Positions 1 through 64,000 of a stretch of 64,000 bases of DNA are shown one piece after another. The translations under genes were made by a program, and so were the position numbers. The first letter of the stretch is position 1, and each line of letters opens with the position of its first letter. The stretch is from an uncultured Chloroflexia bacterium (GTDB lineage Bacteria; Chloroflexota; Limnocylindria; Limnocylindrales; CSP1-4), in assembly GCA_963766685.1 (NCBI GenBank), contig CAVYBJ010000002.1:22257-86256 (forward strand). Direction: 5' to 3'. The notes under the pieces were generated by a model. That model made no database searches. It had not been told where the DNA came from and saw only the letters and a program-made list of their open reading frames with translations.

Positions 1-1407
1 CGGCTGCGATGGCTCGGCACGGGCACGTGGCTGGCGATCACACTGACGCTCCTCGTCGCGACCGTGATCTGGGCATCTCGGGGAACCCCGTGGCAGACGC
101 TCGAACTGCGCATGGGTCCCCTGAGCCTGGCCGCCATCGTCTTGACCGGGGCCGTGTATGGCTCGGTCGGTGCCTCGGTGGTGCGCCACGTGCCAAGGAA
201 CCCGATCGGCTGGCTGTTCCTGGCCGTCGCGCTGGGCATGGCCGTCCTGCTCCCTGTCAACCTCGTGCTGGAGTCCACGGTCCATGCCTTCCGGCCGGTC
301 CCCTCGGTGCAGCTCTGGATGGCCTGGGCGTTCTCCAGCGTGCAGCTGCCGTTCTCCGGGGCCGCCGTCATCGTGGCGGTCCTTCTGTTCCCGCATGGAC
401 GACCCGTGTGGCGCCACTCGCACACCACCACGAGGCTGGCCATCGGCGGCGCCATCCTGCTGGCCGTGAGCGCGACATTCCGGCCAGCCGGGCTGCTCTG
501 GTATCGGACGCTACCGAACCCAGCGGCTGCACCGGCCGATCTGAAGAGCCTGCTGACGATCGTCTCGCTCGTCGGCCTGGCAGCGCTGATCGTCGCGCTC
601 GTCGCGGCGGCCGCGTCCCTCGTGTGGCGCGTCCGCCTGGGGGACCCGCGGGAGCGACGACCCCTGGCCTGGGTGCTGGGCGGCAGCGCCGTCATGGCTG
701 GCGCCGTCGCGGTGCTCTTTGGCGCTCGGTACAGCGGCACCATCGGGGCAGAAGGGGGCGACCTCCTGCTCCTGGTCGGGGCCATCGGGGCCGCCGTGCT
801 GCCGCTGAGCATGGTCCGCTTCAGGACCATGACCGAGGCGCGGGGGCAGCAGATCGCGGACCACACGTTCCTGTTCACCGACCTGCAGGATTCGACCGCG
901 ATGTACGAGCGGATCGGTGATGTCACCGCGTTCGACCTGGTGCGCCTGCATTTCGACACCCTGGAGTCCGCGACGCGGCGCCACGGTGGCGCCATCGTCA
1001 AGACCATCGGCGATGCCATCATGGCGCGGTTCTCCGAGCCGGACGAGGCGGTGAGAACGGCGCTCGAGATGTTCGAACGCCTGGAACGCTTCAACCAGCG
1101 CTCCGATACGCGTCTGATCCTCAAGGTGGGCCTGCACCGAGGTCCCGCCATCGAAGTGACGTCGAAGGGCCGTGATGACTACTTCGGGCAGTCCGTCAAC
1201 ATCGCCGCCCGGGTGGGCGCGATCGCGATCGCGGGTGAGCTGGTCCTCACCGAGTCGGTCTACGAGAGCGCCGGTGTGGCGAGCCTGCTCGAGGGCCGCG
1301 CGACGCGACAGGAACTGGTGACGCTCAAGGGAGTCGCCAGCGCGGTGTCCGTCTACCGCGTGGCCGGCGTCGTTCCCGAGCCTGCCAGGCGCTGGAGTCC
1401 ATCGTAG
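1..1407 (+). CDS. membrane-anchored class III adenylate/guanylate cyclase, 5' end outside window
   Basis: ORF 64..1407. The same frame stays open and hydrophobic back to base 1 (WLGTGTWLAITLTLLVATVIW). Multi-TM N-terminal half, then cyclase core FLFTDLQDSTAMYERIGD / IVKTIGDAIMARF / GQSVNIAARV. Confidence 0.8.
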   Translation, partial: RLRWLGTGTWLAITLTLLVATVIWASRGTPWQTLELRMGPLSLAAIVLTGAVYGSVGASVVRHVPRNPIGWLFLAVALGMAVLLPVNLVLESTVHAFRPVPSVQLWMAWAFSSVQLPFSGAAVIVAVLLFPHGRPVWRHSHTTTRLAIGGAILLAVSATFRPAGLLWYRTLPNPAAAPADLKSLLTIVSLVGLAALIVALVAAAASLVWRVRLGDPRERRPLAWVLGGSAVMAGAVAVLFGARYSGTIGAEGGDLLLLVGAIGAAVLPLSMVRFRTMTEARGQQIADHTFLFTDLQDSTAMYERIGDVTAFDLVRLHFDTLESATRRHGGAIVKTIGDAIMARFSEPDEAVRTALEMFERLERFNQRSDTRLILKVGLHRGPAIEVTSKGRDDYFGQSVNIAARVGAIAIAGELVLTESVYESAGVASLLEGRATRQELVTLKGVASAVSVYRVAGVVPEPARRWSPS

Positions 1408-2765
1408 GCGGCGTACTTGTAGACGTCGGCCCGCGTGGGCAGGTTGAAGGTCGTGTGGATGAAGCGATCGATGGTTTCGCCGGCATGCATGACCGCCTGG
1501 GCCACATGGATCAGTTCGCCGGCTTCCTCGCCGAGGATATGCGCCCCCAGGAGCCGTCGGTCGTCTCGGCGGAAGACCACCTTGATGAGTCCGTTCGTGG
1601 TACCGGCGATGACGCTCCTCGGGTTGCCGGAGAAGGGGGCGCGACCAGTCTCGGCGTCGATCCCCTCGGCGGCGGCAGCCTGCTCCGTCATGCCCACCAT
1701 GGCCACCTCTGGTATCGAGTAGATGCCGTACGGCGGCAGCGGGTCGACGGTCTCCTTGAAGGGGATCTCGAAGGCGTGGCACATGGCCACGCGACCTTGC
1801 TCGGCGCTGACCGAGGCCAGGGCCGGTGGTCCGACGACGTCCCCAGCCGCGTAGATCCCTGGCGCGGTCGTCTCATAGCGGTCGTCGACGACGATGCGAC
1901 CGCGAGCATCGGTCTCGATGCCGGCCGCGACCAGGGCCAGGCTCTCCGTATTGCCGCTGCGACCGGCGGCGTAGAGCACCTTGTCGGGTGACAGGTCCGC
2001 GTCGTCGGACAGCTCGACGCGCAGCCGGCCATCCTCGCGCGAGACCTTCGCCTGCGAAGAGCCGAGCACGAGCCGGACACCCATGCTGGTCAGGCATGCC
2101 GCCAGTTCGTCGGAGATCTCGGCGTCGAGGAAGGGCATCATCCGCTTCCCCCGGTCCACCAGCGCCACCTCCACGCCCAGGGCCGCGAAGATCGACGCGT
2201 ATTCGCAGCCCACGGGGCCGCCCCCGATGACGACCAGGCTGCCAGGCAGGCGGTCGAGCGCGAGGATGGTGTCGGAATCGTGGACATCCGGGTCGTCGAA
2301 GGGGACATCCGCTGGCCGATACGGCCGCGAGCCCGTGGCGATGAGGATCCTGTCCGCGCGCAGGGAGTGCTCCTCGCCGGCCGCGTCCGTGACGATGACC
2401 GAGCGGTCCGGCCCCAGCCGAGCCTCGCCACGGTGGACCGTGATGTCGTGCCGCTCCAGGTTCTTGCGAACGAGCTCGCCGGCCAGCGCTGAAACGGTCT
2501 CGGCTCGCGCCTTCATGCGCTCCAGCGTGATCTCGGGCGCGAGTGCCAGGCCCACTCCGTAGACTTCGCGGCGGCGGTAGCTGGTGAGGTAGAGGGCCGT
2601 TTCACGAAGGGTCTTGGTGGGCAGGCCTCCGCTGTTGACCGGAGCCCCGCCGGGACGGGCAGCACGCTCCACCAGTGCCACGCGCCTGCCGAAGTAGGCC
2701 GCTTGGGCGGCACCCTTCTCCCCAGCCGGTCCCGATCCGATCACCACCAGGTCGTAGTGGTCCAT
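1353..2765 (-). CDS. sthA: soluble pyridine nucleotide transhydrogenase (flavoprotein disulfide reductase family)
   Basis: ORF 1353..2777. ATG at 2765 is preceded by GGAGG. MDHYDLVVIGSGPAGEKGA...GGLPTKTLRETALYL matches the SthA/Lpd FAD-binding N-terminus. About 470 aa and intact. Confidence 0.85.
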   Translation of the reverse strand: MDHYDLVVIGSGPAGEKGAAQAAYFGRRVALVERAARPGGAPVNSGGLPTKTLRETALYLTSYRRREVYGVGLALAPEITLERMKARAETVSALAGELVRKNLERHDITVHRGEARLGPDRSVIVTDAAGEEHSLRADRILIATGSRPYRPADVPFDDPDVHDSDTILALDRLPGSLVVIGGGPVGCEYASIFAALGVEVALVDRGKRMMPFLDAEISDELAACLTSMGVRLVLGSSQAKVSREDGRLRVELSDDADLSPDKVLYAAGRSGNTESLALVAAGIETDARGRIVVDDRYETTAPGIYAAGDVVGPPALASVSAEQGRVAMCHAFEIPFKETVDPLPPYGIYSIPEVAMVGMTEQAAAAEGIDAETGRAPFSGNPRSVIAGTTNGLIKVVFRRDDRRLLGAHILGEEAGELIHVAQAVMHAGETIDRFIHTTFNLPTRADVYKYAAYDGLQRLAGSGTTPATR

Positions 2766-2951
2766 GTCCGCCTCCACGTGCTCTCCCGATCGCCGACGAC
2801 GACGGCGTGGATAGGCAATTCGTACGTCAGCGGCACGATGACTGTCAATGCGTGCTCACGACCGTGCCGACGTGTGTGCCAGCGAGTCCTTGAGGGCTGT
2901 GTTCGTCCAAGGGCTTGCGGCCGGGCGGAGTGCTGGCGCATCCTTCTGCGC

Positions 2952-3344
2952 ATGGGCCAGTATCCCGTGGAGCTCATCCTCGTCCGTCACCTGGCGAGCC
3001 GGCTGGCGATCCCCGTCTTCGTCGTCGACGCGAGCGGCGAACTCATCTACTTCAATGAACCCGCGGAGCGAGTGCTTGGGCGTCGTTTCGACGAGATCCG
3101 ACTCATGCCCTTCGAGGAGTGGACGACCGCATTCGTGCCGGCGTCACAGGGCAGACCGCTGGATGCGGAGCAGCTCCCCCTCGTCGTGGCGCTGCGGCGG
3201 TCGACTCCGGCGCACAGCGACTTCGAGATCGTCAGCGCTGATGGCGTGAAGCGATCGATCGAGGTGACCGCCTTTCCCATCATCGCGCCCGTCGATCGGA
3301 CCATCGGCGCAGTCGCCATGTTCTGGGAGCAGGACGGACCGTGA
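2952..3344 (+). CDS. small PAS-domain protein
   Basis: C-terminal 130 aa of ORF 2703..3344, starting at ATG 2952 (MGQYPVELILVRHLASRLAIPVFVVDASGELIYFNEPAERVLG...). PAS-like sensor fold pattern. Its stop overlaps the next gene's GTG (GTGA at 3341). Confidence 0.6.
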   Translation: MGQYPVELILVRHLASRLAIPVFVVDASGELIYFNEPAERVLGRRFDEIRLMPFEEWTTAFVPASQGRPLDAEQLPLVVALRRSTPAHSDFEIVSADGVKRSIEVTAFPIIAPVDRTIGAVAMFWEQDGP

Positions 3345-4205
3345 GGGTCGCCTTCTGGGGGACGCGCGGCTCCCTGGCGACGCCGGGTCCGGAGACCATC
3401 ACCTACGGCGGCGACACGTCCTGCGTGGCGATCACCGGAGGAGACCCCGCGCACCTCATCGTGCTGGACGCGGGGACGGGCATCCGCCGGCTGGGGAGCA
3501 ACATCTCGAGCGAGGTCAAGACGATCGACGTCTTCCTCTCGCACCTTCACCTCGACCACATCCTCGGCCTCGGATTCTTCGCGCCGCTGTTCCGACCGGA
3601 CATGAGCGTCACGATCTGGGCGCCTCCATCGTCGACACCGCTGCTCCATCGACTGGGCCGCTACCTGTCGCCGCCGCTGTTCCCGGTCCGCATCAGGGAC
3701 CTCTCTTGCGAGCTCCACCTGCGTGACGTGGGCGAGCACCCCGTCACCCGTGGTGGCTTCAGGTATCACGGCAGCGTCGATCATCCATCCCGACACGGCG
3801 GTCGGCTATCGCATCGAGACCGAGGGCCAGGTCGTGGCCTATCTGCCCGACCACGAACCGGCGCTCTCACCGTCCTTCCCGTCATTGGCGCGCTGGACAT
3901 CCGGAGCCGCCATCGCACGTGACGCGGATCTCCTGATCCACGATGCGCAATACGCCGCGGACGAGTATCCCGCGTACCTGGGCTGGGGTCACTCGTCGGT
4001 GCTCGACGCGGTCGCGTTCGCAGAGATGACGGGTGCACGCAGGCTGGCGCTCTTCCACCACGACCCTGCCCATGACGACACGACGGTCGCGCGCCTGGAG
4101 CTCGAGGCACGACAGGCTGGCAGGACGACGCGGGCGCAGGCCGCTCGTCAGGGTGCGACCATCGTGCTCGGACCGTCGCTTCGGGCCGAGCACGCTGCCG
4201 GCTGA
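3341..4205 (+). pseudogene. MBL-fold metallo-hydrolase, frame disrupted near 3762 (+1)
   Basis: ORF 3341..3922 carries the HxHxDH motif (SHLHLDHILG). The conserved sequence continues in ORF 3723..4205 (ITAASIIHPDTAVGYRIE...GWGHSS...LFHHDP). Junction is ggcttcagg-t-atcacg. Confidence 0.8.
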
Positions 4206-8920: not shown

Positions 8921-9688
8921 TCAGGTCGAGCGGGCCCGCTTGCGGCGCTTGCGACCGAAGGCCGCGGCCACGTGGGGCCGCGTCAGGTACCAGAAGAGCA
9001 CCAACGACACGATGGCCCCAACGGCACCATAGGCGACGATCCCGGAGAGCCCTTCCCGGGCCAGACCGAGCAGCACCTGGACGACGCTGATCGCGCTGAC
9101 GACGAGGGCGGCCATCCACGCCCAACGCTGCCGGCGCCACATGCCGATCCCGGCCATGACCGTGACCAGGCCGATGCCGCCCAGCACGAGCGGCACCAGC
9201 AGGGGCGCGACACCCAACGGGATGTCCGCCGCTTCCTGCGCGCCGCCCAGGGCGGCCAGCACGACGATCGCGGCAAGGACGAGCTCCAGGCTGCCGGCGC
9301 CCAGCAACCAGGCGGAGCGACCGAAGGCCGCGGCCACGTGGGGCCGCGTCAGGTACCAGAAGAGCACCAGCGAGACGATGGCTGCCAACGGCACCGAAGG
9401 CCACGATCCCGGAGAGGCCTTCCCGCGCCAGCCCGAGCAGCACCTGCAGGACGTTGAAGGCGCTGAGGACGAGGGCGGCCATCCACGCCCAGCGCTGCCG
9501 GCGCCAGATGCCGATCGCCGGCCAGGACCGTGACCAGGCCGATGCCGCCGAGCACGAGCGGCACCAGCAGGCGGCGCGACACCCAGCGGGATGTCCGCCG
9601 CTTCCTGCGCGCCGCCCAGGGCGGCCAGCACGACGATCGCGGCCAGGACGAGCTCGAGGCTGCCGACGCCCAGCCAGCCAGGGGCCAC
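8921..9688 (-). pseudogene. membrane protein built from two tandem 122-aa 4-TM modules; upstream module carries three +1 insertions
   Basis: ORF 8921..9688. The downstream module is intact (GSLELVLAAIVVLAALGG...LLVPLVLGGIGLVTVMAGIGMWRRQRWAWMAALVVSAISVVQVLLGL...IVSLVLFWYLTRPHVAAAFGR). The upstream module has the same sequence spread over three frames (shifts ~9383, ~9517, ~9573). Confidence 0.55.
8952..9686. repeat. tandem direct duplication, 2 x ~366 bp, about 90% identical by eye
   Basis: The string cgaccgaaggccgcggccacgtggggccgcgtcaggtaccagaagagcacc starts at both 8952 and 9318. The alignment continues for about 366 nt with about 27 substitutions and three 1-nt indels. Confidence 0.85.
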
Positions 9689-9751
9689 CCAGCGCAGGCC
9701 CTTGGGCTCGCCCAGCGGCCGCCCGTGGCTCGGCGGAGGCGATGGGTGCTG

Positions 9752-11814
9752 TCACGTCCAGCTGCTGGGCCCAGTGCTGCAGCTGCTGGTGGACGGCCGG
9801 CGCCCCCACGAGCAGCTCGCCGTCCAGGGCCAGCTCGGCGGGGTGGAGCAGGAACGGCCGGGTCTGTGGGCCGCCCATGCCACCGTGGCTGCCGACCAGC
9901 TCCTCGAAGGCGGCGACCTCCTGCAGCGTCGGGTCGTAGATGCTGTTGATGAGCAGGTCGCCGACGTTCGAGAACCCGTCCAGGCGGCGCAGGTGGTCGG
10001 CTGCGCGTGGCCCGAAGGGCGCCAGGGGGTCCTCGCCCTCGACCCGGTCGTCAGCGAGGTGGTGCACGCCCCGGGCGCCGAGCACCACGGCCGCCTCTGC
10101 GGTGCGAACCATGACGAAGCCGATGCCCGGGTGGCCGACGAGGCCGGCCAGCAGGCCCGGATGGTGTTCCTCCACCTGGTCGGCGCGCATGCGCTCGCCC
10201 TCGACCGTGAAGTAGACATTGGCCAGGTTGCCGCTGGCGCAGACGACGACGTCGGGATGCTCGGCCACCTGGGCTGCGTGGATCCGCGGCGCCGAGCTCC
10301 ACGGCGCCGTCCACGGAGCGGCTCCGCAGGGCGGCATTGGTGGCCCGGCCGGCGACGCCCGGACGCAGGGCGAGTTCCGTGAGCAGCGCGTTGACGGGGC
10401 CGTACATCTCCGCTCGCCCCGTGGCCGCGACCACGTCCGGTTGGCCGCCCATGAGCGCCCGGATGAGCTCCTCGAGCGACTGCCCGTAGCGCTGAGCGAA
10501 GGTGGCGCCCTGGCTCTGGCCGTGATCGGAGAGCAGCACGAAGCGGTACGCGCGCGGGGCGTGCTCGGCCGCCCGCTCCAGCGAGGCGATGACACGGTCG
10601 ACGCCGGTCAGGGCACGCAGCGACTCGATGCGCTCCGGTCCCGCGTGGTGCGCGATCTCGTCGTAGTCGACCAGGTCCGTGTAGATGACGGGCGCCCCGA
10701 GCGACATGGAGCGGACCACGAAGGTCGTGTTGAGGTCGCGCAGGACGACGTTGGTGGCCGCCCGCAGGAAGGCGAAGGTGGTGCCCCGGTGGACGCGCGG
10801 CTGGATGTCCTGGACGCGCTGGCGGCGCGACTCCACGAGCTCCTTGAGGAACTCGCCGATGCCCAGCACGAGGGTGCGGATGAAGGCCGCCGGGTCCATG
10901 AAGTAGAGCGAGAAGGCGTCCACGTCCAGCTGGCTCATGGGGTCGCCCATGCGGCTCATGACGAAGGCGCTGCGCCGCGCGTCGCCGGTGAAGAGGTTGC
11001 CCACGCTGCTGCCGCCCTGCGCCAGCAGCCCCTGGCCGTTGGAGACGCGTCGCTCGATCTCCGTGGCGTCGGCCGGGTGGTTGGAGACGAGGAGTCGGCC
11101 GCTGGCCTTCTCGTACCAGCGAAAGGCCGGGATGCCGTCGTTGCTGCCATGCAGGATGCCAGCCTGGCTGGCCGAGGTCTGCGAGGGCGGCGGGCACTCC
11201 CACTCGGCCAGGTGGTAGGCGCCGGAGCGCACCCAGCTGGCCATGCGCGGCACGGTCCCGACGCGGATGGCGTTGCGCAGGATGGGTGCCGCCAGGCCGT
11301 CGATCTGGATGATCGCCAGGCCGGCCGGGCGGGGCCCCTCGGCCACCGTATCAGCCTCGATGCGACGCGCCAGCTCGTCGTAGAAGGACTCGTCCTCGTC
11401 GATGGCCAGGACCACGTTCACGACCGTCGTGGCCACGGTCAGGATGACCGCCAGCGACAGCGCCGGCACGAAGCCGCTGACCTCCAGGCCGGGCACCAGC
11501 GGCGCGGCCAGCACGATCATCGAGGTGTTGATGACGAGCGAGAGGAGGCCGAACGAGGCCACCGTCAGCGGCAGCGTGAGGACCACGATGATGGGCCGCA
11601 CGAGGGCGTTCAGGCCGGCGATGACGGCCGCCGCGAAGAGGGCCGAGAAGAGGTCCTCCACCAGCACGCCGGGCAGCAGGTGGCCAAGGACGAGCAGCAC
11701 GAGGGCCTGCAGGAACCAGGTGAAGAGGACGCGCCGCGGGGCATGCTGGATGCGCTCGCGGGCCAGCGCGATGCTGGCCGACAGGCTGCGACGAACGGTC
11801 CCTCCGAGGCTCAT
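9752..11814 (-). pseudogene. DUF360 (4-TM holin-like) domain fused to alkaline-phosphatase/nucleotide-pyrophosphatase superfamily domain; frame disrupted near 10290, 3' end uncertain
   Basis: ORF 10051..11901 from ATG 11814 (MSLGGTVRR...LLPGVLVEDLFSALFAAAVIAGLNALVRPIIVVLTLPLTVASFGLLSLVINT, then ...YRFVLLSDHGQSQG). It continues in ORF 8907..10595 (PRIHAAQVAEHPDVVVCASGNLANVYF...VGSHGGMGGPQTRPFLLHP). The stop at 9752-9754 is in the next +1 frame, so the end is tentative. Confidence 0.7.
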
Positions 11815-11942
11815 GGCTGCGAAGCGTAGCCTGCCGACGGACCCGCCGCCGGTCGCCGGCAGCCGGCAGGCCCCCCGGCGAGCGGCCGCCGCCGGAGGCA
11901 TACGCTGTCGACGGACACCAGTCGATGCTGGGGGGCGATGGG

Positions 11943-15070: not shown

Positions 15071-15219
15071 CCCGCGATATCGACTCCCATCCCGACGTGG
15101 CCCGCGGGCGCGCACGGCACGCGCCATCGGCCAGGTCCCGAGGATACGCCAGACGGCCCCCCAGACAGGTGCATGGAGGCACCACCCACCGCCCGCGGCT
15201 GCCCGCTATCTTCAGCGGC

Positions 15220-16227: not shown

Positions 16228-16280
16228 CGGCCGGCTGACGGTCGGCACGGCCGCTGACCGCCCGAGTCCGGACAGCAGAG

Positions 16281-16314
16281 GAGCCGCCCGACCCTCCCCC
16301 GTGCCGGGCGGCTC
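16281..16314. terminator. candidate bidirectional hairpin between convergent genes
   Basis: gagccgcccg (16281-16290) pairs with cgggcggctc (16305-16314), with a 14-nt loop. It lies 54 nt after the ADH stop. There is no clear U-tract. Confidence 0.35.
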
Positions 16315-16372
16315 TCCGTTGTCTGGTGCGTCGTAGCCGTCCGGCGCGCCAGGCGGTGGTGTGTCGCTGGCG

Positions 16373-18600: not shown

Positions 18601-18676
18601 GGCCAGATGGTAGCGCGGCTATCCTCCGGGACGTGCGACTTCGCCGACGAGCCCCCATGCCCCCGAGCACCCCAGC

Positions 18677-51451: not shown

Positions 51452-51600
51452 GCGCCACCCTGGCCGACCGACGCGGGCCGCCGCTGTCGACGCCACGCAC
51501 CACCCCGGCGGCATGGCCGCGGTCGGGACCATCCGGAGCCCGGGGTCAGGACCATCTTGCGATGGCCCGTCCCGGCGGTCGCGGCCACTCTTGGTCAGCC

Positions 51601-53466: not shown

Positions 53467-53504
53467 GTGCGAGTGGCCCCGAGGGCCTTTCGCGCTGGCG
53501 CCGA

Positions 53505-55754: not shown

Positions 55755-56615
55755 TGCCCGCCCTGACACGAGTGCTCGCGGCCTCGCGCTCGGGGCCGCC
55801 CTGGCGGCCACCGGCTTGGTGGGCCAGGCGTCCGCGGTGCTGGCCGGCGACAGTGGCGATCGCATGCTGGTGGCGTCCAGCCAACTGCAGGACCGGCCCT
55901 TCCGCAGCCTCGTGCTGGTGACGGTCGGCGAGCGCGTGGTGTGCACGGGCTTCGTCATCGCCCCCACCAAGGTCGTGACCGCGGGCCACTGCCTCGCCCG
56001 CGACGCGGCCGGGGGCGACTTCCGCTTCCGTCGCGGGCTGCCGGGTGACATTCGACTCCACCGCGCCTACAGCCAGATCGCTGGTGGCTCGCCCTTCGCC
56101 AGCTGCGAGGTCTCGCAGGCCTGGGCGCACCCGCGCTTCATCCGGCGCAACGCGTCGGACACCTCGTACGGCAGTCGGGCGCACGACTACGCCGTGCTCA
56201 CCACGTCGCCCGACTGCGTCTATCCCGAGAGCGCGGTCATGCGCATCTGGCCGACCGAATCGTCGGACGGGCAGCTGCCCGCGGGCAGCACCATCAAGCT
56301 CGGCGGCTACCCGGCCGACTCGCGCTTCGCGGACATGAACGGGCTGAACCTCTGGCGCAGCCAGGGCCAGGTGCGTCCCCCGGAAGGGCGATCCGGCGCT
56401 GCTCGACACGACCGGCTTCGTGGCGCAGGGCATGAGCGGCGGACCCGTGTGGCGGACCTTCGAGGCCGGAATCGCCGTGCGGTCGCGCCCAGTGCGCCGT
56501 GGCCATCCTGACCGAGTGCGCCGTGAACGACGAGGGGCGCTGCAAGCTCGGAGACAACCTGCGCCTGGCCGTGCGCATCACGCCGACCGTGATGGAGTCG
56601 CTGGCGCGCCGCTGA
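55754..56615 (+). pseudogene. secreted trypsin-like (S1, Glu-endopeptidase-like) serine protease, three frame disruptions (~55780, ~56390, ~56490)
   Basis: ATG 55754 overlaps the GT4 stop (TGATG). Signal peptide LALGAALAATGLVGQASAVLA. The triad is His in VVTAGHC, Asp in HDYAVL, and Ser in AQGMSGGPVW (ORF 56420 frame). The C-terminus ILTECAVNDEGRCKLGDNLRLAVRITPTVMESLARR ends at TGA 56613. Confidence 0.7.
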
Positions 56616-56643
56616 TCCGGACCGCTGGCGCGCCACAGAGGGC

Positions 56644-57655
56644 TCAGACCCGCAGGATCTCCTCGGTCACGGCGTCGGCGAGGGCCTCGAAGTCCGGGGC
56701 CACGGGCTCGCGCTTCTCGATGACGAGGTCCTCCGCCCGCTCCAGGACCCGCATGCGGCCCTGCTCGATGAGCCAGCGGTCGACCGCCCCGAGCGCTCCG
56801 GCGAACGTGGTCCAGGTGGGCACGCCCAGCACCGCCGCCTCCCGGTTCATGGTGCCGCCCGCGCTGATGACGGCGTCGGCGGCCCACACGAGCGAGGGTC
56901 CGTCGACCGGACGCTCGGGGATGGTGACGCCCGCCGCCCCGCTGAACGAGGCGGCCTGCTCCGGGGTCCGCGGCAGCAGCACGACCTGGGTGTCGCTCGC
57001 GAGGAGGCGCGCCAGCACGTCGTCGAAGACGGTGTTCTCCAGGCCGCGGTGATAGAGGCTCATGGTGGCCGGCGGGCGAAGGACCACGATGGGGCGACCG
57101 CGGTCCAGGCCGAGCTCCTCGAGCACGCCTCATCGGGGGAGAAGTCGGCCAGGGCGACCTGCTCCTTGAGGCCTGGGTAGGGACGGTAGCGGCGGCGGTC
57201 GAGGCCCAGCGGGGCCAGCGACTCGAAGGGGATGACCTCGGGCAGCATGACCTTGTCCGCCAGCCGGAAGTTGATCTTGTGCATGCCCGCGGCGCCCTCG
57301 TAGTCGTGCAGCACGGTGCTGTGGAGGCGCAGCAGCCGCGCTGCCACGGCCAGGTCGTTGGAGCCGTGGCTGACCGCCTGGCTCAAGCCGCGCCCGCGGC
57401 CGAAGCGCAGCAGTGCGGTCGAACGGCGCACGCAGCCCCAGGCCCTTGCCGCGCAGTGAGGCGCCGCCGTGACGGCCGACGACGGTGTGCGCGATGCCGA
57501 AGCGCTCCAGCAGACCCAGGGTCTGGGCGAAGTCGCGGGCCGTCACGACCGCTTCCACGCCGGCCTCGTCGAGGCGCCGCAGGATGGGCCGGAAGAAGAC
57601 GACGTGCGGGCGAGTTGGTGAGGTCGATCCAGACGCGGCGCGGTCGGGCGGTCAT
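56644..57655 (-). pseudogene. DUF354-family protein (GT-B/epimerase-like fold), three frame disruptions (~57607, ~57436, ~57127)
   Basis: The pieces are MTARPRRVWIDLTNSP | HVVFFRPILRRLDEAGVEAVVTARDFAQTLGLLERFGIAHTVVGRHGGASLRGKGLG | ...SHGSNDLAVAARLLRLHSTVLHDYE...LKEQVALADFSPDE | VLEELGLDRGRPIVVLRPP...ISAGGTMNREAAVLGVPT. Confidence 0.7.
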
Positions 57656-57673
57656 GGCGGGCGGACGGTCCGC

Positions 57674-58995
57674 CTAGAGGACGTCGACGTTGGGGGGCAC
57701 GCTCCCGGAGGCACGCCCGGCGAGCCGCCGGCGCACGGCGTTGCGGAGGTCCACCACGAGATCCGCGTGCTCCACCACGAGCGCCAGGTCCAGGGCGGCA
57801 TGGGCGGTGGCGATGACGACGCAGTCGGCCGCCGCCGAGGGTCGCCGCGTCCAGGGGCACGGAGGCGAGGTCGTCGCCGGGCAGCGTCGCGACGTGCGGG
57901 TCGTGGTAGCTGACGTGGGCGCCCTCGGCCCGCAGCAGCTCCAGCAGCTTGAGCGAGGGGCTCTCGCGCAGGTCGCCCACGTCCGCCTTGTAGGCCATGC
58001 CCAGGAGCAGGATGCCCGCGCCGCGCACGGCCTTGCCACGCGCGTTCAGCGCCCGCGAGATGCGGGAGACCGCGTAGTAGGGCATGTTGACGTTGACTCG
58101 CCCGGCCAGCTCGACGAACTCGCTGTCGAGGTCGAAGGCGCGCGCCCGCCAGGCCAGGTAGAAGGGATCGACCGGGATGCAGTGGCCGCCCAGGCCGGGC
58201 CCGGGCCAGAAGGGCATGAAGCCGAAGGGCTTGGTGGCCGAGGCCTCGATGGCCTCCCAGACGTCGATGCCCATGCGGTCGGCGAGGATGGCCATCTCGT
58301 TGACGAGGGCGATGTTCACGGCCCGGAAGGTGTTCTCGATGATCTTGGCCATCTCGGCCGACTCGGGTGACGAGACCGGGTGGACCCGGTCGCAGATGCG
58401 CGCGTAGAGCGCCTCCGCGCGGGCCGCGCAGGCCGGCGTGAGGCCGCCCACGACCTTGGGCGTCTCGCGCATGCCCCAGCGCGTGTTGCCGGGGTCGACG
58501 CGCTCCGGGCTGAAGGCCAGGAAGGCGTCCTGGCCGATGGTACGGCCGGCGGCCTCCAGCATCGGCGCCAGGACCTCTCGCGTGGTGCCCGGCCAGGTCG
58601 TCGACTCGAGGACCAGGAGGGCGCCGGGGGCGAGGTTGGCGATGGCCGTCTCGGCCGCGGCGGTGACGTACGAGAGGTCCGGCTCGCGGTGCTGGCCCAG
58701 GGGCGTGGGCACGCAGACGAGGATGGCGCTGCAGTCGCGCAGCCGCGTGGCGTCCGTGGTGGCGACGAGGCGGCCGGAGGCCAGCAGCGGTGCCAGGGCC
58801 TCCGAGGGGACGTCCTCGATGTAGGAGCGGCCCGCGTTGATGGCGGCCACCTTGTCGGCCGAGGTGTCCACGCCCACGACGTCGAGGCCGGCCTCCGCGA
58901 AGGCGACCGCCAGGGGCAGCCCGACATAGCCGAGCCCGATGATGCCGACCGTGCCGTTGCCGGCGCGTGCTGTCGCTGTCGCGTGCTGCTGTCAC
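57674..58995 (-). pseudogene. nucleotide-sugar 6-dehydrogenase (UDP-GlcNAc/ManNAc dehydrogenase family), two +1 disruptions (~58955, ~57845)
   Basis: The Rossmann N-terminus GNGTVGIIGLGYVGLPLAVAFAEAGLDVVGVDTS has no in-frame start, and GTG 58995 is one frame off. The main ORF 57543..58877 has the catalytic GGHCIPVDP. The C-terminus ADCVVIATAHAALDL is in ORF 57674..58039. Confidence 0.8.
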
Positions 58996-59150
58996 GGCTC
59001 GCCGACTCTAGCACTCGACAGGCGAGCGCGTCGACGGTCGTGCCGACGCCCGCGGCAGCCTGACCGGGCGAGCATGGCACCGGCACCGGGCGACGCGCGT
59101 CGGCGTGCCGAGCGCCGCGCCCGGCGAGCGGCCGTGGCATCCTTGCCGCC

Positions 59151-60231
59151 ATGCCCGGACTCATCCACGTCGTCGGCGCGCGGCCCAACTTCATCAAGGC
59201 GGCCCCGGTCATCGCCGCCCTGCGCGCGGCGGGCGTCCCGCAGCGGCTCGTGCACACCGGCCAGCACTACGACCGCGCCATGTCCGACGTCTTCTTCGAG
59301 GAGCTGGGCCTGCCCGAGCCGGACCTCAACCTGGGCGTCGGGCTCCGGCAGCCACGGTACCCAGACGGCGGCCCTCCTGGTGGCCCTGGAGGAGGCCTTC
59401 CTGGCCGAGGCGCCCGACCGCGTCGTCGTCTACGGCGACGTCAACTCCACGCTGGCCGCCGCGCTCGTCTGCGCCAAGCTGCTCATCCCGGTGGCGCACG
59501 TGGAGGCCGGCCTGCGCTCCTTCGACCCGACCATGCCGGAGGAGGTCAACCGCCGCGTCACCGACCTGCTCAGCGACCCGCTCTTCGTGACGGCGCCGGA
59601 AGGCGAGGTCAACCTGGCCGCGGAGGGCATCAGCGGCGAGCGGGTCGTCTTCGTGGGCAACCCCATGATCGACACGCTGCTGGCGCACCTGGACCGCCTC
59701 GCATCCGGAGCCGGTCATGGCGCGGCTGGGCGTGACGGCCCCGTACGCGCGTGGCCACGCTGCACCGGCCGGCCAACGTGGACACGCCCGGCCGCCGCGG
59801 CCGCCCTCGTGGGCGCGCTGCGCGAGGCCACGCGGCGCCTGCCCGTCGTCCTGCCGCTCCACCCGCGCGGCCGCGCCACGCTGGCCGCGGCCGGGCTGGA
59901 GTACGTGCCCGGCCTGCGCGTCATCGACCCGCTCGGCTACGTCGACTTCCTGTCGCTCGTCCGCGGCGCGGCCGCCGTCATCACGGATTCGGGCGGCATC
60001 CAGGAGGAGACCACGGTCCTCGACGTGCCCTGCCTGACGCTGCGCCCCAACACGGAGCGGCCCATCACGCTCACGGCCGGCACCAACCGGCTGGTCACGC
60101 CGGAGGACCTGGGGCCCGCCCTGGACGCGGCCCTGGCCGGTGCCCAGCGGCGGCCCGGCGACGGGCCGCCGGGCTGGGACGGGCACGCCGGCGAGCGCAT
60201 CGCGGCCGTGCTCGTCGAGCGGGGCGCGTGA
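59151..60231 (+). pseudogene. wecB: UDP-N-acetylglucosamine 2-epimerase (non-hydrolysing), four +1 disruptions (~59340, ~59705, ~59750, ~59790)
   Basis: MPGLIHVVGARPNFIKAAPVIAAL...VHTGQHYDRAMSDVFFEELGLPEPDLNLGVG | SGSHGTQTAALL...VVYGDVNSTLAAAL...VAHVEAGLRSFD... | EPVMARLGVTAPYA | VATLHRPANVDTP | AAAAALVGAL...VLPLHPRG...ITDSGGIQEETT. Confidence 0.85.
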
Positions 60232-61353
60232 TGTCGGTGGCCGATCCTGCGCCCGCGGTCCGCCCGAGCCCCGGGGCCGTCCGCCCGCTGCGGGCCATCC
60301 TGCTGCCCTCCTACACGTGGAACCCCTACCAGCGTCTGCTGGCGGCCGCACTGCGGGAGCAGGGCGTGGAGGCCACGGTGGTCAGCGAGTGGCCGGAGCG
60401 ATCCCCGCTCGTGGGCGCCTGGCAGGCGCACGGCCGGCCGGACGTGGTGCACCTCCACTGGATCCACGACTTCCTGGGCGGCAGCAAGGGCCAGCCGTCG
60501 CGGCGCAACGTCCTCTGGTTCGACTGGCAGCTGCGCCTGCTCAAGGCGCGCGGCGTGCGCATCGTCTGGACCGTCCACAACCTCAAGGGCCACGAGGCCG
60601 GCGACGATCCCCGCGAGGCGGACGCCCACCGCGCCATCATCGAGCGCGCCGATGCGGTCATCCTCCACTGCCACCACGCCCGGGAGGCGCTCATCGAGCT
60701 GTATCGACCGAGCGCCGCGGCCCAGGCGCGGATGCACGTGGTGCCCCACGGCAGCTACGTGCGCCAGTACGACGTGGACGCCGACTCGGCCGCGGCCCGC
60801 GCGGGCGCTGGGCCTCCGGAGCGCGGCACCGTGCTTCGGCTTCGTGGGGTCCATCCGCGGCTACAAGGGCGTCGGCGAGCTCGTGGAGGCCTTCACCGCC
60901 TCCGGCGACCTGGGACCGGACGCCCGACTGCTCATCTGCGGCAAGCCGCTGCCGGCCAGGCTCGGGCCGCGAGCTGGAGGAGCGTGCCGCGGCCGACCCG
61001 CGCATCGTCCTGCGGCTGGAGCGCATCCCGGAGGAGGACCTCTCGCGCGTCCTGCGCGCGGCGGACGTGGTGGTGCTGCCCTTCCGCGACATCCTCACCT
61101 CCGGCAGCGCCATCCTGGCGCTCAGCCACGGGCGGCCCGTGGTCGTGCCTGCCCTGGGCTGCCTGCCGGAGACGCTGCCAGCGGAGGCCACCTTCCTCTA
61201 CGACCCGGATGACCCCGATGCCCTGGCGGCGCCCTGCATCGCGCGGCCGGCGCCGACCTGGCGGCCATGGGGGTCCGTGCGCGAGCCTGGGCGGATGGCC
61301 TCGACTGGGGGCCCATCGCGGCGGAGACGGCCCGACTGTACCGGGGCGGCTGA
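60231..61353 (+). pseudogene. GT4-family glycosyltransferase, three frame disruptions (~60810, ~60955, ~61230)
   Basis: ATG 60231 overlaps the wecB stop (TGATG). The N-terminal half is in the ORF 59751 frame (RAILLPSYTWNPYQRLL...VVHLHWIHDF...IVWTVHNLKGHE). It continues as FGFVGSIRGYKGVGELVEAF (60652 frame), then RIPEEDLSRVLRAADVVVLPFRDILTSGSAILALSHGRPVVVP (60140 frame), then LHRAAGADLAAMGVRAREWADGLDWGPIAAETARLYRGG, ending at TGA 61351. Confidence 0.7.
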
Positions 61354-61356
61354 CCC

Positions 61357-62384
61357 ATGCGCCGCCGGACCGCCGCCCGGGGACGAGCCGCTCTCCGTCG
61401 AGTCCTGCCCGGACGCCGTCGTCATGCCGGCCGTGCCCTACGCGCACCCCCGCCGGCAGACGGCCTTCCGGATGGGCGTCTTCGACGCCGAGGCCGCATC
61501 GTGCGCGGCAGCCTGCTGCAGCGCAGCTATGGACCAGGTCGGCTTCGCGCCCGACCCCCGGCGTCCGGTGGGCTCGATCCGCGCTCGGTCATCTTCGCCG
61601 GCCACCTCTCCTATCACTTCGGCCACTTCATCCTGGAGAGCCTGTCCGGCTCTGGTTCGCCGCGCAGCACCCGGAGCGGCCCATCGTCTGGGCCTGCCGG
61701 CCGGAGCCAGTCCCACCCCCCTGGCACGGCTGGCAACGCCAGGTCCTGGACGTGCTGGGCCTGCGCAACGAGGTCCTGCTGCTGACGGAGCCGACTCGCT
61801 TCCGCTCCGTCGATGTCCCGGAGCCGGGCTACCGCGTCAAGGACTTCTTCTCGCGCCAGCATGCCGACTTCCTGGCGGCCTACCCGGCGCGCCAGCGCGA
61901 CCCGGAGCTGCGCGTCTGGCTATCGCGCTCGGGCTCGGACTCCGAGTACCGCAGCCTCCACGCTCCTCGCCTCGAGCAAGAGTTGGCCGACCACGGCTGG
62001 AGCGTCATGCAGCCGGAGACGCTGCCGGTCAGCGCGCAGCTGGAGCTGCTGGCGACGGCGGGGCGGGTGGCCGGCGAGCAGGGCTCGGCCTTCCACCTCC
62101 TGGTGCTGCTGGCCGACGTCCATGGCCTGGAGGTGGACATCATCTGCCGTGATCCCGGCCGGCCGGCCGAGGAGCAGAACCAGAACTACCCGCTCATCGC
62201 GCAGGTGCGCGGCCTGCGGCAGCGCCTGCACGTCATCCCCGAGGAGCGTGTCCTGGCCAGCCAGGGGGCAAGGTCAGGAAGGACGCCACGACGCTGGCCG
62301 GCCACCTGGAGGCACTGGGGATCCCACGCACGGGGTCGGCCGCGCGCTCGGGGTCCGCCGCGACGGGCCGCCGCACGATCCTGA
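61357..62384 (+). pseudogene. GT61/DUF563-family glycosyltransferase, several frame disruptions; both ends uncertain
   Basis: VIFAGHLSYHFGHFILESLS | RLWFAAQHPERPIVW (1-nt deletion at ~61647, tccgg for tcccgg). ...LLLTEPTRFRSVDVPEPGYRVKDFF...RVWLSRSGSDSEYRSLHAPRLEQELADHGWSVMQPETLPVSAQLELLATAGRVAGEQGSAFHLLVLL. The C-terminus beyond ~62270 cannot be resolved. Confidence 0.55.
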
Positions 62385-62643: not shown

Positions 62644-63905
62644 TCACGCGCGGGTGGGCATCCGGTCTGAGGTCGTGGCTTCGGTCGCCGTGGGCTCGCC
62701 GCCGCCGCTGCCGCCCGCGTGCCCCGCATCCCGCCTCGTCTCCAGTCGCCGCCCGACCTGCCGCTGGCTCGCCGCTCGCCTTGACTGCGGCTCGGGTCGC
62801 GGCGCGCGCGGCAGCGCGGGCCTGGATGCGGGTCTTCACTTCTTCGAGCTCGGCGCGATCCTCGTCGTCCAGCTCGTCGTCGGCCAGGTCGTCCTGGCCT
62901 TCCGCGACGGTGACCAGGGTGCCTGCCTTGCGCGCCTTGCGGATGTCCACGAGGTCGACCTTGCCGTGCTTGACGAGCTGCTTCGCCTTGCGCTTCTGCT
63001 TCATGCGCCGCTCGGCGTCGTCCTCGTGCATGTCGGCGATCTCGTCCGGGCTGCCCTCGGCCACGATGTGGCCCTTGTCGAGCAGGATGGCGCGCGTGCA
63101 GAAGGCCATGATCCAGCTCATGTCGTGGGTGACCATCACGACCGCCTTGGCGGTCTGCAGCACCTCGGAGATGCGGACGCGGCTCTTCTCCTTGAACTTG
63201 TTGTCGCCGGTCTGGAGGACCTCGTCCAGGAGCAGGATGTCGGGGTCCACGGCCGTGGCGATGGAGAAACCCACGCGCGCTCGCATGCCGGAGGAGTACG
63301 TCTTCATGGGCGCGTCGATGAAGGCGCCGATGGCGGCGAAGGAGATGATGCCGGGCGTGATCTCCTCCATGAGCTTGTGGTCGATGCCCATCAGCGCGCC
63401 GGCGAGGGCGATGTTCTCGCGGCCGGAGAGCTCCGAGTCGAAGCCGGCCTGCAGGCTGAGCAGCGTGGAGACGTGGCCGTGCGCCTCGACCACGCCCTCC
63501 GAGGGTTGGATGATGCCGGCCAGCGCCAGCAGGAGGGTGGACTTGCCGCAGCCGTTGGGCCCAACGACGCCCACCGCCTCGCCGCGGCTGACGGTCAGGT
63601 TGACGCCGCGCAGCGCCCAGAAGTGACCCTTCCGCCTACGCCGCGGGTCAGCAGGGTGGCGAACGACGTCTGGAGCTTCGCCTTCTTGGTGAGGCTGAGG
63701 TTGTAGCGGATGCCCAGGTTCGTGGCCCGCAGCGCCATGGGGCCGGTGCCCACCGGCACGCGCAGCCCGAAGGTGCCTGGCTCCGGCGCCTCGTCGTCCG
63801 CGTCGTCCGCGTCGTCGACCAGCTGCGCCAGGGCCGCCTCGTCGAGGCGGCTGTCGTGTCGGCCGTCCTGCGTTCCGGCGCAAGGCCGGGCTCAGGGTCA
63901 CTCAT
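62644..63905 (-). pseudogene. polysaccharide/teichoic-acid-type ABC exporter ATPase (Wzt/TagH-like) with charged C-terminal extension; at least 2 frame disruptions (~63845, ~63640); alternative start ATG 63738; 3' end tentative
   Basis: MALRATNLGIRYNLSLTKKAKLQTSFATLLTRGVGGR | KGHFWALRGVNLTVSRGEAVGVVGPNGCGKSTLL...YSSGMRARVGFSIA...ILLLDEVL...MVTHD. This is followed by KQKRKAKQLVKHGKVDLVDIRKARK...DDLADDELDDEDRAELEEVKTRIQ. ATG 63905 overlaps the permease stop (ATGA). The stop at 62644-62646 is in the +1 frame. Confidence 0.75.
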
Positions 63906-64000
63906 AGGAGCTTCGCAAAGGCCGGCTCGAGCCGCTTGAAGATGATGGTGCCGATGACGACGAAGACCACGCCGGTCACGAAGATGAGGGCCAGCATCGG
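63902..64000 (-). CDS. ABC-2-type exporter permease (Wzm/TagG-like), 3' end only
   Basis: The reverse strand reads ...PMLALIFVTGVVFVVIGTIIFKRLEPAFAKLL* ending at TGA 63902-63904. This is a typical ABC-2 permease C-terminus, translationally coupled to the ATPase. Confidence 0.6.
   Translation of the reverse strand, partial: PMLALIFVTGVVFVVIGTIIFKRLEPAFAKLL

What the first reader, a model, noticed from the sequence alone, without database searches (positions are those of the whole stretch)
1..64000. About 50 single-base frame disruptions in roughly half of the genes: mostly +1 insertions, no nonsense codons seen, strongly clustered
Following conserved protein sequence across the six-frame track shows about 30 of about 60 genes hopping between frames. 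Examples: MBL ~3762, AlkP ~10290, Gfo ~12650/12818, aspC-type ~17988, glxK ~21755, cca ~24709, pdxS ~28648, guaB3-type ~35999, acdS ~37592, DmpA ~39541, radC ~47038, and wecB four times.

Where I traced the DNA, about four fifths of the events add one base in the direction of transcription. Plus-strand genes step to frame n+1, and minus-strand genes show the mirror pattern. At least 6-8 look like 1-nt deletions instead: ~6400, ~53050, ~55780, ~57127, ~61230, ~61647, ~63640.

I found no in-frame stop codon or large deletion in any reconstructed gene. Conserved motifs resume immediately after each shift. This fits insertion-biased consensus error from a long-read-only or low-coverage assembly better than old pseudogenes.

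Two points keep very recent decay as an alternative. The events are far from uniform: 9 in 12.6-13.8 kb and more than 20 in 55.7-63.9 kb, while the 1.4-1.8 kb genes ettA, sthA, guaA, mmsA and GT4 are clean. Genes normally considered important (pdxS, cca) are also hit.

Every functional call below depends on resolving this.
Basis: partly seen in the sequence, partly recalled or inferred. Interest (0 to 1): 0.7.

Follow-up and report, generated by a model that had tools for sequence, protein, structure and literature searches.

The report
Frameshifts from metagenome assembly consensus errors
About 70 single-base frame breaks in this 64-kb Chloroflexota contig are real in the deposited sequence, but they are almost certainly consensus errors of a metagenome assembly and not decaying genes, so they matter only as a data-quality warning.

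Summary
I catalogued 69 precisely placed 1-2 nt frame disruptions, plus one imprecisely placed, in 29 of about 60 genes. There are 54 insertions and 15 deletions. There are no internal stop codons. Clustering is strong (index of dispersion 4.1, p = 2e-13).

- Two more distant relatives on long contigs (84-99% nt identity) carry intact genes at nearly all these sites.
- Two other assemblies of the same species-level population (S and T, 90-98% nt) each carry their own, mostly different, insertion-biased set at about 1 per kb.
- Once the indels are removed, window-versus-S codon differences are mostly synonymous. The 9-hit TIM-barrel gene shows 31 synonymous to 6 nonsynonymous. The original frames therefore stayed under selection.
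- The insertions show no homopolymer or motif association.
- Several insertions recur at the same site in independent assemblies. There the window string reads as two alternative alleles written in tandem.

This points to a consensus built over collapsed co-occurring strains, plus patches of thin coverage. This is not a biological feature, and interest is low.

The parts
3343..4185 (+). MBL-fold hydrolase gene; +1 insertion at 3764 (T)
   Evidence: A Pfam Lactamase_B_2 alignment crosses the junction. There is a gap against R2 and the frame changes +1 to +2.
8922..11845 (-).
   Evidence: Five net +1 frame steps appear in the Viterbi segmentation. Three-way gaps against S, R1 and R2 support them. 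9388 and 9672 are also present in T.
11957..12985 (+). Gfo/Idh/MocA oxidoreductase; +1 at 12657 (private) and 12810 (also in S; T has an in-frame CGC allele at this site)
   Evidence: Orthologues are a uniform 343 aa.
12982..13867 (+). Xylose-isomerase-like TIM-barrel gene; +1 at 13016, 13017, 13127, 13200, 13315, 13396, 13416 and 13743; -1 at 13030. 13017, 13315 and 13416 are also in S.
   Evidence: A Pfam AP_endonuc_2 alignment is continuous across the stitched frames. Four- and five-way alignments place the events. The gene is an intact 294-295 aa in R1, R2 and T. Window-versus-S codon differences are 31 synonymous to 6 nonsynonymous.
14338..15073 (-). SAM-dependent methyltransferase; +1 at 14631 (A)
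   Evidence: The same gap appears against S, R1 and R2.
16219..17213 (-). Hypothetical 329-aa gene; -1 at 16501
   Evidence: A gap appears against S and R1.
17413..18618 (-). aspC-type aminotransferase; +1 at 17988
   Evidence: A Pfam Aminotran_1_2 alignment crosses the junction. A gap appears against S and R1. The gene is an intact 399 aa in S, R1 and T.
20924..22113 (-). Glycerate kinase; +1 at 21757, and +1 at 22113 just 5' of the start (22113 is also in T)
   Evidence: A Pfam Gly_kinase alignment crosses the junction. Further support.
22129..22874 (-). Hypothetical 246-aa gene; +1 at 22411 and +2 at 22704-22705
   Evidence: Gaps appear against S and R1, with matching frame steps.
23870..24280 (-). 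TPR protein; +1 at 23992
   Evidence: Gaps appear against S and R1.
24290..25629 (-). CCA-adding enzyme; +1 at 24712
   Evidence: A Pfam tRNA_NucTran2_2 alignment crosses the junction. A gap appears against S and R1. The gene is an intact 443 aa in R1.
27929..28822 (+). pdxS; +1 at 28647 (T)
   Evidence: A gap appears against S and R1. The gene is an intact 295 aa in S and R1.
30663..32914 (+). SpoIIIAA-like ATPase/R3H protein; +1 at 32407
   Evidence: A gap appears against S and R1. The gene is 745 aa in R1.
35827..37043 (+). IMPDH-like (guaB3-type) gene; +1 at 36000
   Evidence: A Pfam IMPDH alignment crosses the junction. Further support.
37004..38061 (+). ACC-deaminase-like PLP enzyme; +1 at 37594 (T)
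   Evidence: A Pfam PALP alignment crosses the junction. Further support.
38095..39403 (+). BNR-repeat protein; +1 at 38343 and 39250, and +1 at 38095 upstream of the gene
   Evidence: Gaps appear against S and R1.
39404..40532 (+). DmpA/S58 peptidase; +1 at 39543 (A)
   Evidence: A Pfam Peptidase_S58 alignment crosses the junction. Further support.
40763..41955 (+). DnaJ-domain protein; net -1 (or +2) somewhere in the Pro-rich linker at 40980-41090
   Evidence: The J-domain and the C-terminal part lie in different frames. The window's own gene call is 349 aa, against 392-aa orthologues.
43945..44375 (+). Hypothetical 144-aa gene; +1 at 44239
   Evidence: Gaps appear against S and R2.
44473..45286 (+). 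Double-zinc-ribbon protein; +1 at 45209 (A)
   Evidence: A gap appears against S. The R2 alignment is noisy here.
46672..47389 (+). radC; +1 at 47035
   Evidence: tblastn HSPs switch frame at 47034/47036. Gaps appear against S and R2.
51571..53468 (+). FlgD_ig-domain protein; +1 at 52716, 53048 and 53054
   Evidence: The pair at 53048/53054 mimics a deletion.
55767..56626 (+). Trypsin-like protease; -1 at 55781; +1 at 56384 and 56470
   Evidence: Gaps appear against S, R2 and five Illumina metagenome contigs.
56631..57667 (-). DUF354 gene; -1 at 57130; +1 at 57433 and 57608; +1 at 57667 in the spacer
   Evidence: Flanks at 57433 and 57608 are identical in all relatives.
57667..58994 (-). UDP-glucose/GDP-mannose dehydrogenase; +1 at 57835
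   Evidence: S carries at least 6 private insertions of its own in this gene.
59041..60229 (+). wecB (UDP-GlcNAc 2-epimerase); +1 at 59339, 59701, 59748 and 59785
   Evidence: Gaps appear against S, R2 and Illumina contigs. The corrected protein is full length.
60230..61354 (+). GT4-family glycosyltransferase; +1 at 60806, 60834 and 60967; -1 at 60815 and 61226
   Evidence: Gaps appear against S, whose ORF is an intact 351 aa, with matching frame steps.
61358..62384 (+). GT61-family glycosyltransferase; -1 at 61491, 61555, 61576, 61645, 62266 and 62361; +1 at 61536 and 61566
   Evidence: Gaps appear against S, whose ORF is an intact 342 aa, with matching frame steps.
62650..64000 (-). ABC transporter (runs off the window); -1 at 63650 and 63869
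   Evidence: Gaps appear against S, whose ORF is an intact 750 aa, with a frame step at 63631/2.

Best explanation
The frame breaks are consensus errors in a metagenome assembly. The contig is a 97.6-kb piece of an uncultured Limnocylindrales-like Chloroflexota genome. The organism's genes are intact.

Two error sources are inferred.
1. Collapsed strains. At many sites, reads from co-occurring, closely related strains were collapsed. Where the strains differ by a SNP or a short multi-base variant, the consensus step wrote both alleles in tandem and added one base. This explains the insertion bias, the lack of homopolymer context, the concentration in variable regions, and the same insertion recurring in independent assemblies.
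2. Thin read support. Other events lie in fully conserved context. They look like raw-read-level errors surviving in patches of thin read support. This explains why the hot spots are specific to each assembly, and why the error type flips from insertions to deletions at about 61.2 kb.

Shown here:
- the events, their polarity and their context;
- their absence from intact relatives;
- continued selection on the original frames.

Inferred:
- the sequencing platform, probably Nanopore with metaFlye and Medaka, as for the relatives' records;
- the two error mechanisms.
For: 1. Intact orthologues. Relatives R1 (contig_16540) and R2 (contig_8430), at 84-99% nt identity depending on segment, have full-length, Pfam-complete genes at nearly all sites. 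The one exception seen is R1's DmpA.

2. Each assembly has its own set. Three-way polarisation gives 52 window-private frame-changing groups and 57 private to sister contig S, which is 94-96.5% nt identical over 44-64 kb and comes from another sample. S is also insertion-biased, 35 to 14. In the five-way region:
- window: 13 insertions, 5 deletions
- S: 11 insertions, 8 deletions
- T: 14 insertions, 2 deletions
- R1: 4 insertions, 2 deletions
- R2: 2 insertions, 2 deletions
Per-bin counts of the window and S are uncorrelated (rho = -0.21).

3. Selection persisted. After removing indels, window-versus-S codon differences (synonymous/nonsynonymous) are:
- TIM barrel 31/6
- Gfo 40/13
- Trypsin 22/7
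- DUF354 35/16
- aspC 18/4
Between the shared break sites of the TIM barrel they are 19/4. Third-position bias persists in the hot regions.

4. No stops. There are zero internal stops in 49 genes. About 2.2% of random substitutions would create one.

5. No context signal. 57% of insertions are isolated bases. Run length of 2 or more is 43%, against 52% under a random-insertion model. Base composition from -4 to +4 matches background.

6. Hybrid alleles.
- At 12810, GAA versus CGC becomes CGAA.
- At 13315, AGCGGC versus ACGGGT becomes AGCGGGT.
- At 13416, CCGCTG versus CCCGTG becomes CCCGCTG.
- 13200 and 13743 carry both SNP alleles.
The inserted base equals a relative's alternative allele at the adjacent column in 11 of 52 events (null 5.8%), and in 7 of 18 once T is added (null 8.3%, p = 4e-4).

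7. Strain mixture and same-clade intact copy. Sample ERZ25039462 holds both R1 and T, so related strains do co-occur. T has an intact TIM-barrel gene at 96% aa identity.

8. Precedent and provenance.
- Collapsed alleles with nearby variants introduce indel errors (PMC8445201).
- Nanopore bins below about 40x need polishing (PMC9262707).
- The closest GTDB relatives are Nanopore-only Microflora Danica MAGs, made with metaFlye plus one Medaka round (PMC12313526).
Against: - No reads were available, so depth, allele mixtures and the platform for this particular contig are unverified.
- Many insertions lie in context that is invariant in every relative I have (for example 57433, 57608, 47035, 32407). 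The both-alleles mechanism cannot be shown for them.
- The published descriptions I read of Nanopore consensus error stress homopolymer indels (PMC9262707). This profile does not match that.
- Polarity beyond 60.8 kb rests on one relative (S), plus frame steps and the intactness of S's ORFs.
- The alternative-allele tests may be inflated by alignment ambiguity near mismatches.
Confidence: 0.93

Rival explanations
1. The errors are purely stochastic read-level errors surviving in patches of very low depth, with no contribution from strain mixtures.
For: - Many events lie in context conserved in all relatives.
- No motif or homopolymer signal is present.
- Hot spots differ between assemblies.
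- Local density, up to 11 events per 2 kb or about 0.5%, is in my own estimate of the order of raw long-read indel rates; I did not check this figure.
- The insertion-to-deletion switch at 61.2 kb would fit a change in the supporting reads.
Against: - Same-site recurrence in independent assemblies: 12810, 13017, 13315 and 13416 with S; 9388, 9672 and 22113 with T. By my own rough estimate only about 0.1-0.3 coincidences are expected by chance.
- Hybrid-allele strings appear at these sites.
- The inserted base matches a neighbouring alternative allele more often than the null.
Confidence: 0.3
2. The breaks are genuine, very recent pseudogenisation: this strain, or this species, is undergoing reductive decay.
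For: - Many genes are hit, including multi-hit genes.
- A few lesions are shared with S and T, which could suggest inheritance.
Against: - The shared lesions are incompatible with the 19/4 synonymous/nonsynonymous pattern between them.
- S and T carry mostly different lesions.
- T has the TIM-barrel gene intact.
- There are no nonsense codons, large deletions or IS elements.
- The 52-to-6 insertion bias at non-repeat sites runs against the deletion bias and repeat-dependence of spontaneous bacterial indels (my own knowledge).
- Nine indels in an 888-bp gene would, by my reasoning, need neutral divergence far above what is observed; the two sequences differ at only about 5% of sites here, mostly synonymous.
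Confidence: 0.03
3. The errors are systematic base-calling errors at strain-specific DNA modification sites, producing indels at fixed positions.
For: The same site recurs in assemblies of the same species, but not in R1 or R2, which have identical flanks (for example 12810 and 22113).
Against: - No shared motif surrounds the insertions.
- Most events are private to one assembly.
- Modification-linked Nanopore errors are, to my knowledge, mainly substitutions.
Confidence: 0.05
4. The frameshifts are programmed recoding (ribosomal frameshifting or transcriptional slippage), and the genes are expressed despite them.
For: Frames on both sides stay under selection, and a few sites recur.
Against: - There is no slippery or homopolymer motif.
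- The sites are absent from R1, R2 and mostly from S and T.
- About 70 sites across 29 unrelated genes is without precedent in bacteria, to my knowledge.
Confidence: 0.005

Closest known systems
Indel-induced ORF fragmentation in long-read assemblies and MAGs (IDEEL-type truncation). Sources: Sereika et al. 2022, PMC9262707; MFD-LR catalogue, PMC12313526; Kastor, PMC12007338.
   Same: - Single-base indels split otherwise conserved genes.
- The problem is worse at low coverage.
- Polishing removes the breaks.
- The closest public relatives of this window come from Nanopore-only metaFlye and Medaka assemblies.
   Different: The literature I read stresses homopolymer indels. Here 57% of insertions are isolated bases, there is no homopolymer enrichment, and insertions outnumber deletions 54 to 15.
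Collapsed-haplotype consensus artefacts (Cosentino et al. 2021, PMC8445201)
   Same: Nearby allelic variants shift read alignments and introduce indel errors and apparent frameshifts into a mosaic consensus. In the window, hybrid strings of two alleles appear at 12810, 13315, 13416, 13200 and 13743.
   Different: That case is a diploid eukaryote. Here the 'alleles' would be co-occurring bacterial strains in a metagenome. This is inferred, not shown with reads.
Pseudogene-rich genomes under reductive evolution (for example Mycobacterium leprae, Shigella, recent symbionts; my own knowledge)
   Same: A large fraction of genes carries frameshifts.
   Different: - No nonsense codons, large deletions or IS elements were seen.
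- Codon differences from S stay mostly synonymous.
- The lesions are private to each assembly.
- The bias is towards insertions.

Membership tests
Assembly/consensus indel artefact | The frame breaks are absent from orthologues in closely related genomes | tested here: met
   R1 and R2 genes are full length with complete Pfam domains. The gaps are window-specific in three-way comparison.
Assembly/consensus indel artefact | Independent assemblies of the same population carry different breaks | tested here: met
   S has about 57 private events and T about 16 in 14.5 kb, mostly at other sites. Per-bin counts are uncorrelated.
Assembly/consensus indel artefact | The original reading frame stays under purifying selection across the breaks | tested here: met
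   Synonymous/nonsynonymous counts are 31/6 in the TIM barrel, and 19/4 between its shared break sites. Other hit genes behave similarly.
Assembly/consensus indel artefact | Raw reads disagree with, or only thinly support, the consensus at the break sites | not testable with these tools
   No reads or depth information are available. The window's own record could not be retrieved.
Homopolymer-type Nanopore consensus error | Indels concentrated in homopolymer runs | tested here: not met
   30 of 53 insertions are isolated bases. Runs of 4 or more account for 4%, against 6% under a random model.
Collapsed-strain (mixed-allele) consensus artefact | The inserted base corresponds to an alternative allele at the adjacent polymorphic site | tested here: inconclusive
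   11 of 52 events against a 5.8% null. 7 of 18 against an 8.3% null, p = 4e-4. Clear hybrid strings appear at five sites. Many other events lie in invariant context, and reads are needed.
Genuine pseudogenes / reductive genome decay | Relaxed selection (dN/dS near 1) in the disrupted genes | tested here: not met
   Third-position bias and a synonymous excess persist.
Genuine pseudogenes / reductive genome decay | A mixed lesion spectrum including nonsense codons and larger deletions | tested here: not met
   There are zero internal stops. All curated events are 1-2 nt.
Genuine pseudogenes / reductive genome decay | Lesions inherited and shared among strains of the lineage | tested here: not met
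   Most are private. The few shared ones conflict with the selection pattern, and T has the gene intact.
Programmed frameshifting / transcriptional slippage | A conserved slippery or homopolymeric motif at the shift site | tested here: not met
   No positional base bias from -4 to +4 and no homopolymer link.

The most novel reading that the evidence does not exclude
The insertions that recur at the same site in independent assemblies (12810, 13017, 13315, 13416, 9388, 9672, 22113) might not be consensus artefacts. They could instead mark something real in this population. One option is high-frequency frameshift alleles kept alongside intact alleles. Another is a strain-specific DNA modification that derails base calling at fixed positions.
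Probability: 0.03. Interest if true: 0.45.

Novelty: not a real feature. Interest (0 to 1): 0.1.

Why it matters
It matters for data hygiene, not for biology.
- About half of the genes on this deposited contig are mis-called. Chimeric products have entered protein databases as cluster representatives. One example is the 697-aa P0013, which joins a Gfo N-terminus to 440 out-of-frame residues.
- Any pseudogene, metabolic-completeness or selection analysis of this MAG, or of sister assemblies S and T, would be misled.
- The error profile is non-homopolymer, insertion-biased, and sits at sites that are polymorphic among co-occurring strains. If reads confirm it, this suggests a failure mode of metagenome polishing in microdiverse populations. 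Homopolymer-focused quality checks would miss it.

Tried and rejected
- Exact look-ups of the window's ettA with two start codons, and of its own chimeric ORF P0013, did not return the source contig. Provenance therefore stays indirect.
- The GTDB genome scan gave only 74-82% aa relatives. That is too distant for base-level work, though it did identify the clade.
- The first MAFFT run timed out. A multi-way run with Illumina contigs was noisy at block ends.
- The block-wise 3-4-way alignment lost coverage in places. I replaced it with pairwise BLAST gap lists cross-matched between partners.
- I looked for a sequence motif around the insertions and found none.
- I tested whether window and S hot spots coincide. 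They do not. The correlation with GC content is weak (rho = 0.41, p = 0.02).
- I tried to tie the ERZ accessions to the Microflora Danica paper through its supplements, but none are held.
- Possible frame changes in the low-complexity insert of the HhH-GPD gene (20.5-20.9 kb) were left out. BLAST nets there are multiples of three, and the MAFFT and Viterbi calls disagree.

Full report
**What the window is.** The window has 72% G+C. Its proteins place it in uncultured Chloroflexota of the Limnocylindrales type. MreB is 74-82% identical to Chloroflexota and Limnocylindria MAGs in GTDB, several of them Microflora Danica (MFD) bins. A named member of its 90% MreB cluster is "Candidatus Limnocylindrales bacterium". 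The window's own gene calls are in the public protein collection, attributed to NCBI and ENA on a 97,575-bp contig. They include P0013, a 697-aa ORF identical to window 11925-14018.

**Checking the observation.** ORFs are long in all six frames at this G+C content. I therefore segmented the window with a self-trained codon-usage Viterbi model. It returned about 110 frame segments with many same-strand frame hops.

Stitching the segments and scanning Pfam showed single HMM alignments running through the junctions of these genes:
- the MBL hydrolase
- the aspC-type aminotransferase
- glycerate kinase
- the CCA-adding enzyme
- the IMPDH-like gene
- the ACC-deaminase-like gene
- DmpA
- several junctions of a xylose-isomerase-like TIM-barrel gene

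Other junctions are ordinary gene boundaries: 3335/6, 7675/6, 19499/500, 25642/3 and 37029/30.

**Relatives used for base-level work.** These are all ENA assemblies with "contig_N" names.

| Label | Record | Length | nt identity to window | Window span covered |
|---|---|---|---|---|
| S | ERZ25039596 contig_2468 | 111,750 bp | 92-98% (94-96.5% over 44-64 kb) | 6.4-40.6 and 44.2-64 kb |
| T | ERZ25039462 contig_53840 | 67,403 bp | 90-98% | 6.4-23.9 kb |
| R1 | ERZ25039462 contig_16540 | 201 kb | 85-93% | 9.3-40.5 kb |
| R2 | ERZ25039459 contig_8430 | 456 kb | 82-99% | 0.5-17.9 and 40.8-60.8 kb |

Short JGI Illumina contigs at 76-85% identity cover 53-61 kb. Genes in R1 and R2 are full length with complete Pfam domains. 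The gene calls of S and T are themselves heavily fragmented.

**The catalogue.** I cross-matched pairwise BLAST gaps between partners and checked them against gene-wise alignments. This gives 69 placed events of 1-2 nt, plus one imprecise net -1 in the Pro-rich linker of a DnaJ-domain protein. They fall in 29 of about 60 genes, with 54 insertions and 15 deletions.

- Eleven events lie in 12.6-13.8 kb and 27 in 55.7-63.9 kb.
- The per-2-kb index of dispersion is 4.07 (chi-square p = 1.9e-13).
- ettA, sthA, guaA, mmsA, GT4, mreB and mreC have no internal frame break.
- After projection onto the reference frames, none of 49 genes has an internal stop. The two apparent ones are an unalignable N-terminus and a natural stop.

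- ~6400 is an intergenic synteny breakpoint with no event.
- The "deletion" at ~53050 is two insertions, at 53048 and 53054.
- Deletions are concentrated beyond 61.2 kb: 2 insertions to 9 deletions there, against 52 to 6 before it (Fisher p = 4e-6).

**Why these are not real lesions.**

1. Polarity. 52 frame-changing groups are private to the window and 57 are private to S (35 insertions and 14 deletions in S). In the region with five sequences the private 1-2 nt events are:

| Sequence | Insertions | Deletions |
|---|---|---|
| window | 13 | 5 |
| S | 11 | 8 |
| T | 14 | 2 |
| R1 | 4 | 2 |
| R2 | 2 | 2 |

So three assemblies of one species-level population each carry their own insertion-biased load of about 1 per kb. 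Their hot spots do not coincide (rho = -0.21).

2. Selection. With the indels removed, window-versus-S codon differences stay mostly synonymous in hit genes (synonymous/nonsynonymous):
- TIM barrel 31/6
- Gfo 40/13
- Trypsin-like 22/7
- DUF354 35/16
- aspC 18/4

Third-position bias persists in both hot regions.

3. Lesion spectrum. About 2.2% of random substitutions in these codons would create a stop. If the 69 indels were real neutral mutations, accompanied by even three to ten times as many substitutions (my own knowledge of bacterial mutation spectra), several to about 15 nonsense codons would be expected. None is seen.

4. Context. 57% of insertions are isolated bases. Their run-length distribution matches a random-insertion model. 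Base composition from -4 to +4 equals background. To my knowledge, spontaneous bacterial indels are repeat-associated and biased towards deletion.

**The shared events.** Four insertions are shared with S (12810, 13017, 13315, 13416). Three are shared with T (9388, 9672, 22113). By my own rough estimate, chance predicts only about 0.1-0.3 coincidences.

They cannot be inherited lesions, for two reasons.
- Between the shared sites of the TIM-barrel gene, window-versus-S differences are 19 synonymous to 4 nonsynonymous in the reference frame.
- T, from the same clade, has that gene intact at 96% aa identity.

The five-way alignment shows what these sites are.
- At 12810, relatives carry GAA or CGC, and the window carries CGAA.
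- At 13315, relatives carry AGCGGC or ACGGGT, and the window carries AGCGGGT.
- At 13416, relatives carry CCGCTG or CCCGTG, and the window carries CCCGCTG.
- At 13200 and 13743, the window carries both SNP alleles side by side.

The inserted base equals a relative's alternative allele at the adjacent column in 11 of 52 events across the window (null 5.8%). With T added, it does so in 7 of 18 (null 8.3%, p = 4e-4).

Related strains do co-occur, since R1 and T come from one sample. The same mechanism has been described for collapsed diploid assemblies, where nearby allelic variants shift read alignments and introduce indel errors (PMC8445201).

**Other events.** Many events lie in context that is invariant in all relatives (57433, 57608, 47035, 32407). 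I attribute them to thin read support. This fits the assembly-specific hot spots, the local densities of up to about 0.5%, and the abrupt switch of error type at 61.2 kb. This part is inference.

**Provenance.** The closest GTDB relatives are MFD-LR MAGs. These are Nanopore-only, assembled with metaFlye in nano-hq mode and polished with one Medaka round. Their authors note reduced coding density in lower-coverage MAGs (PMC12313526). The same group showed that Nanopore bins below about 40x need short-read polishing (PMC9262707). I could not link the window or the ERZ accessions to that project directly.

**Verdict.** The recent-decay alternative is very unlikely (about 3%). This is not a biological feature. 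The one point of modest technical interest is the error signature: insertions at polymorphic, non-homopolymer sites that recur across assemblies. This points to strain-collapse during polishing and not to the classical homopolymer problem. Read mapping would settle it.

Noticed in passing
window 8922-9700 (-): The C-terminal module of about 120 aa and several TM helices in the phosphodiesterase/holin-domain membrane protein occurs twice in tandem. The R2 orthologue is 1210 aa, while R1 has it as 586 + 273 aa.
   Followed up: partly
window 6369-8719: The hyp334 + PfkB-kinase pair is about 98% identical to S, T and R2 alike (98.3%, 97.9% and 98.7%), well above most flanking segments (82-97%). 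Left of 6369, synteny with S and T is lost but kept with R2. This looks like a recombination or HGT boundary.
   Followed up: partly
window 11925-14018 (+): The deposited annotation contains a chimeric 697-aa ORF (P0013): a Gfo N-terminus plus about 440 out-of-frame residues read through the TIM-barrel gene. It is a cluster representative in the public protein collection.
   Followed up: yes
L147, L149, L151 (S); L154 (T); L003; L150 20421-21068: Other public assemblies of this clade are also frameshifted. S and T are affected throughout. The GTDB MFD MAG L003 has radC split over two frames. In R1, DmpA is called as only 215 aa.
   Followed up: partly
window 61200-64000: The error type flips from insertions (52 to 6 upstream) to deletions (2 to 9) at about 61.2 kb. 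The stretch 62385-62765 loses its coding signal, although in S the 3' end of an intact 750-aa ABC transporter gene maps to about 62650 onwards.
   Followed up: partly
L146 11922-12514; L148 13073-13736; L152 3821-6051: Toxin-antitoxin pairs (PemK/RHH, PIN/VapB, PIN/DUF6364) sit in intergenic spots of R1 and R2. The window has no such genes at the corresponding spots.
   Followed up: no
window 8742-8816 (-): tRNA-Thr (CGT) is the only tRNA in the window. It is 98% identical to a stretch of the R1 locus L146.
   Followed up: no
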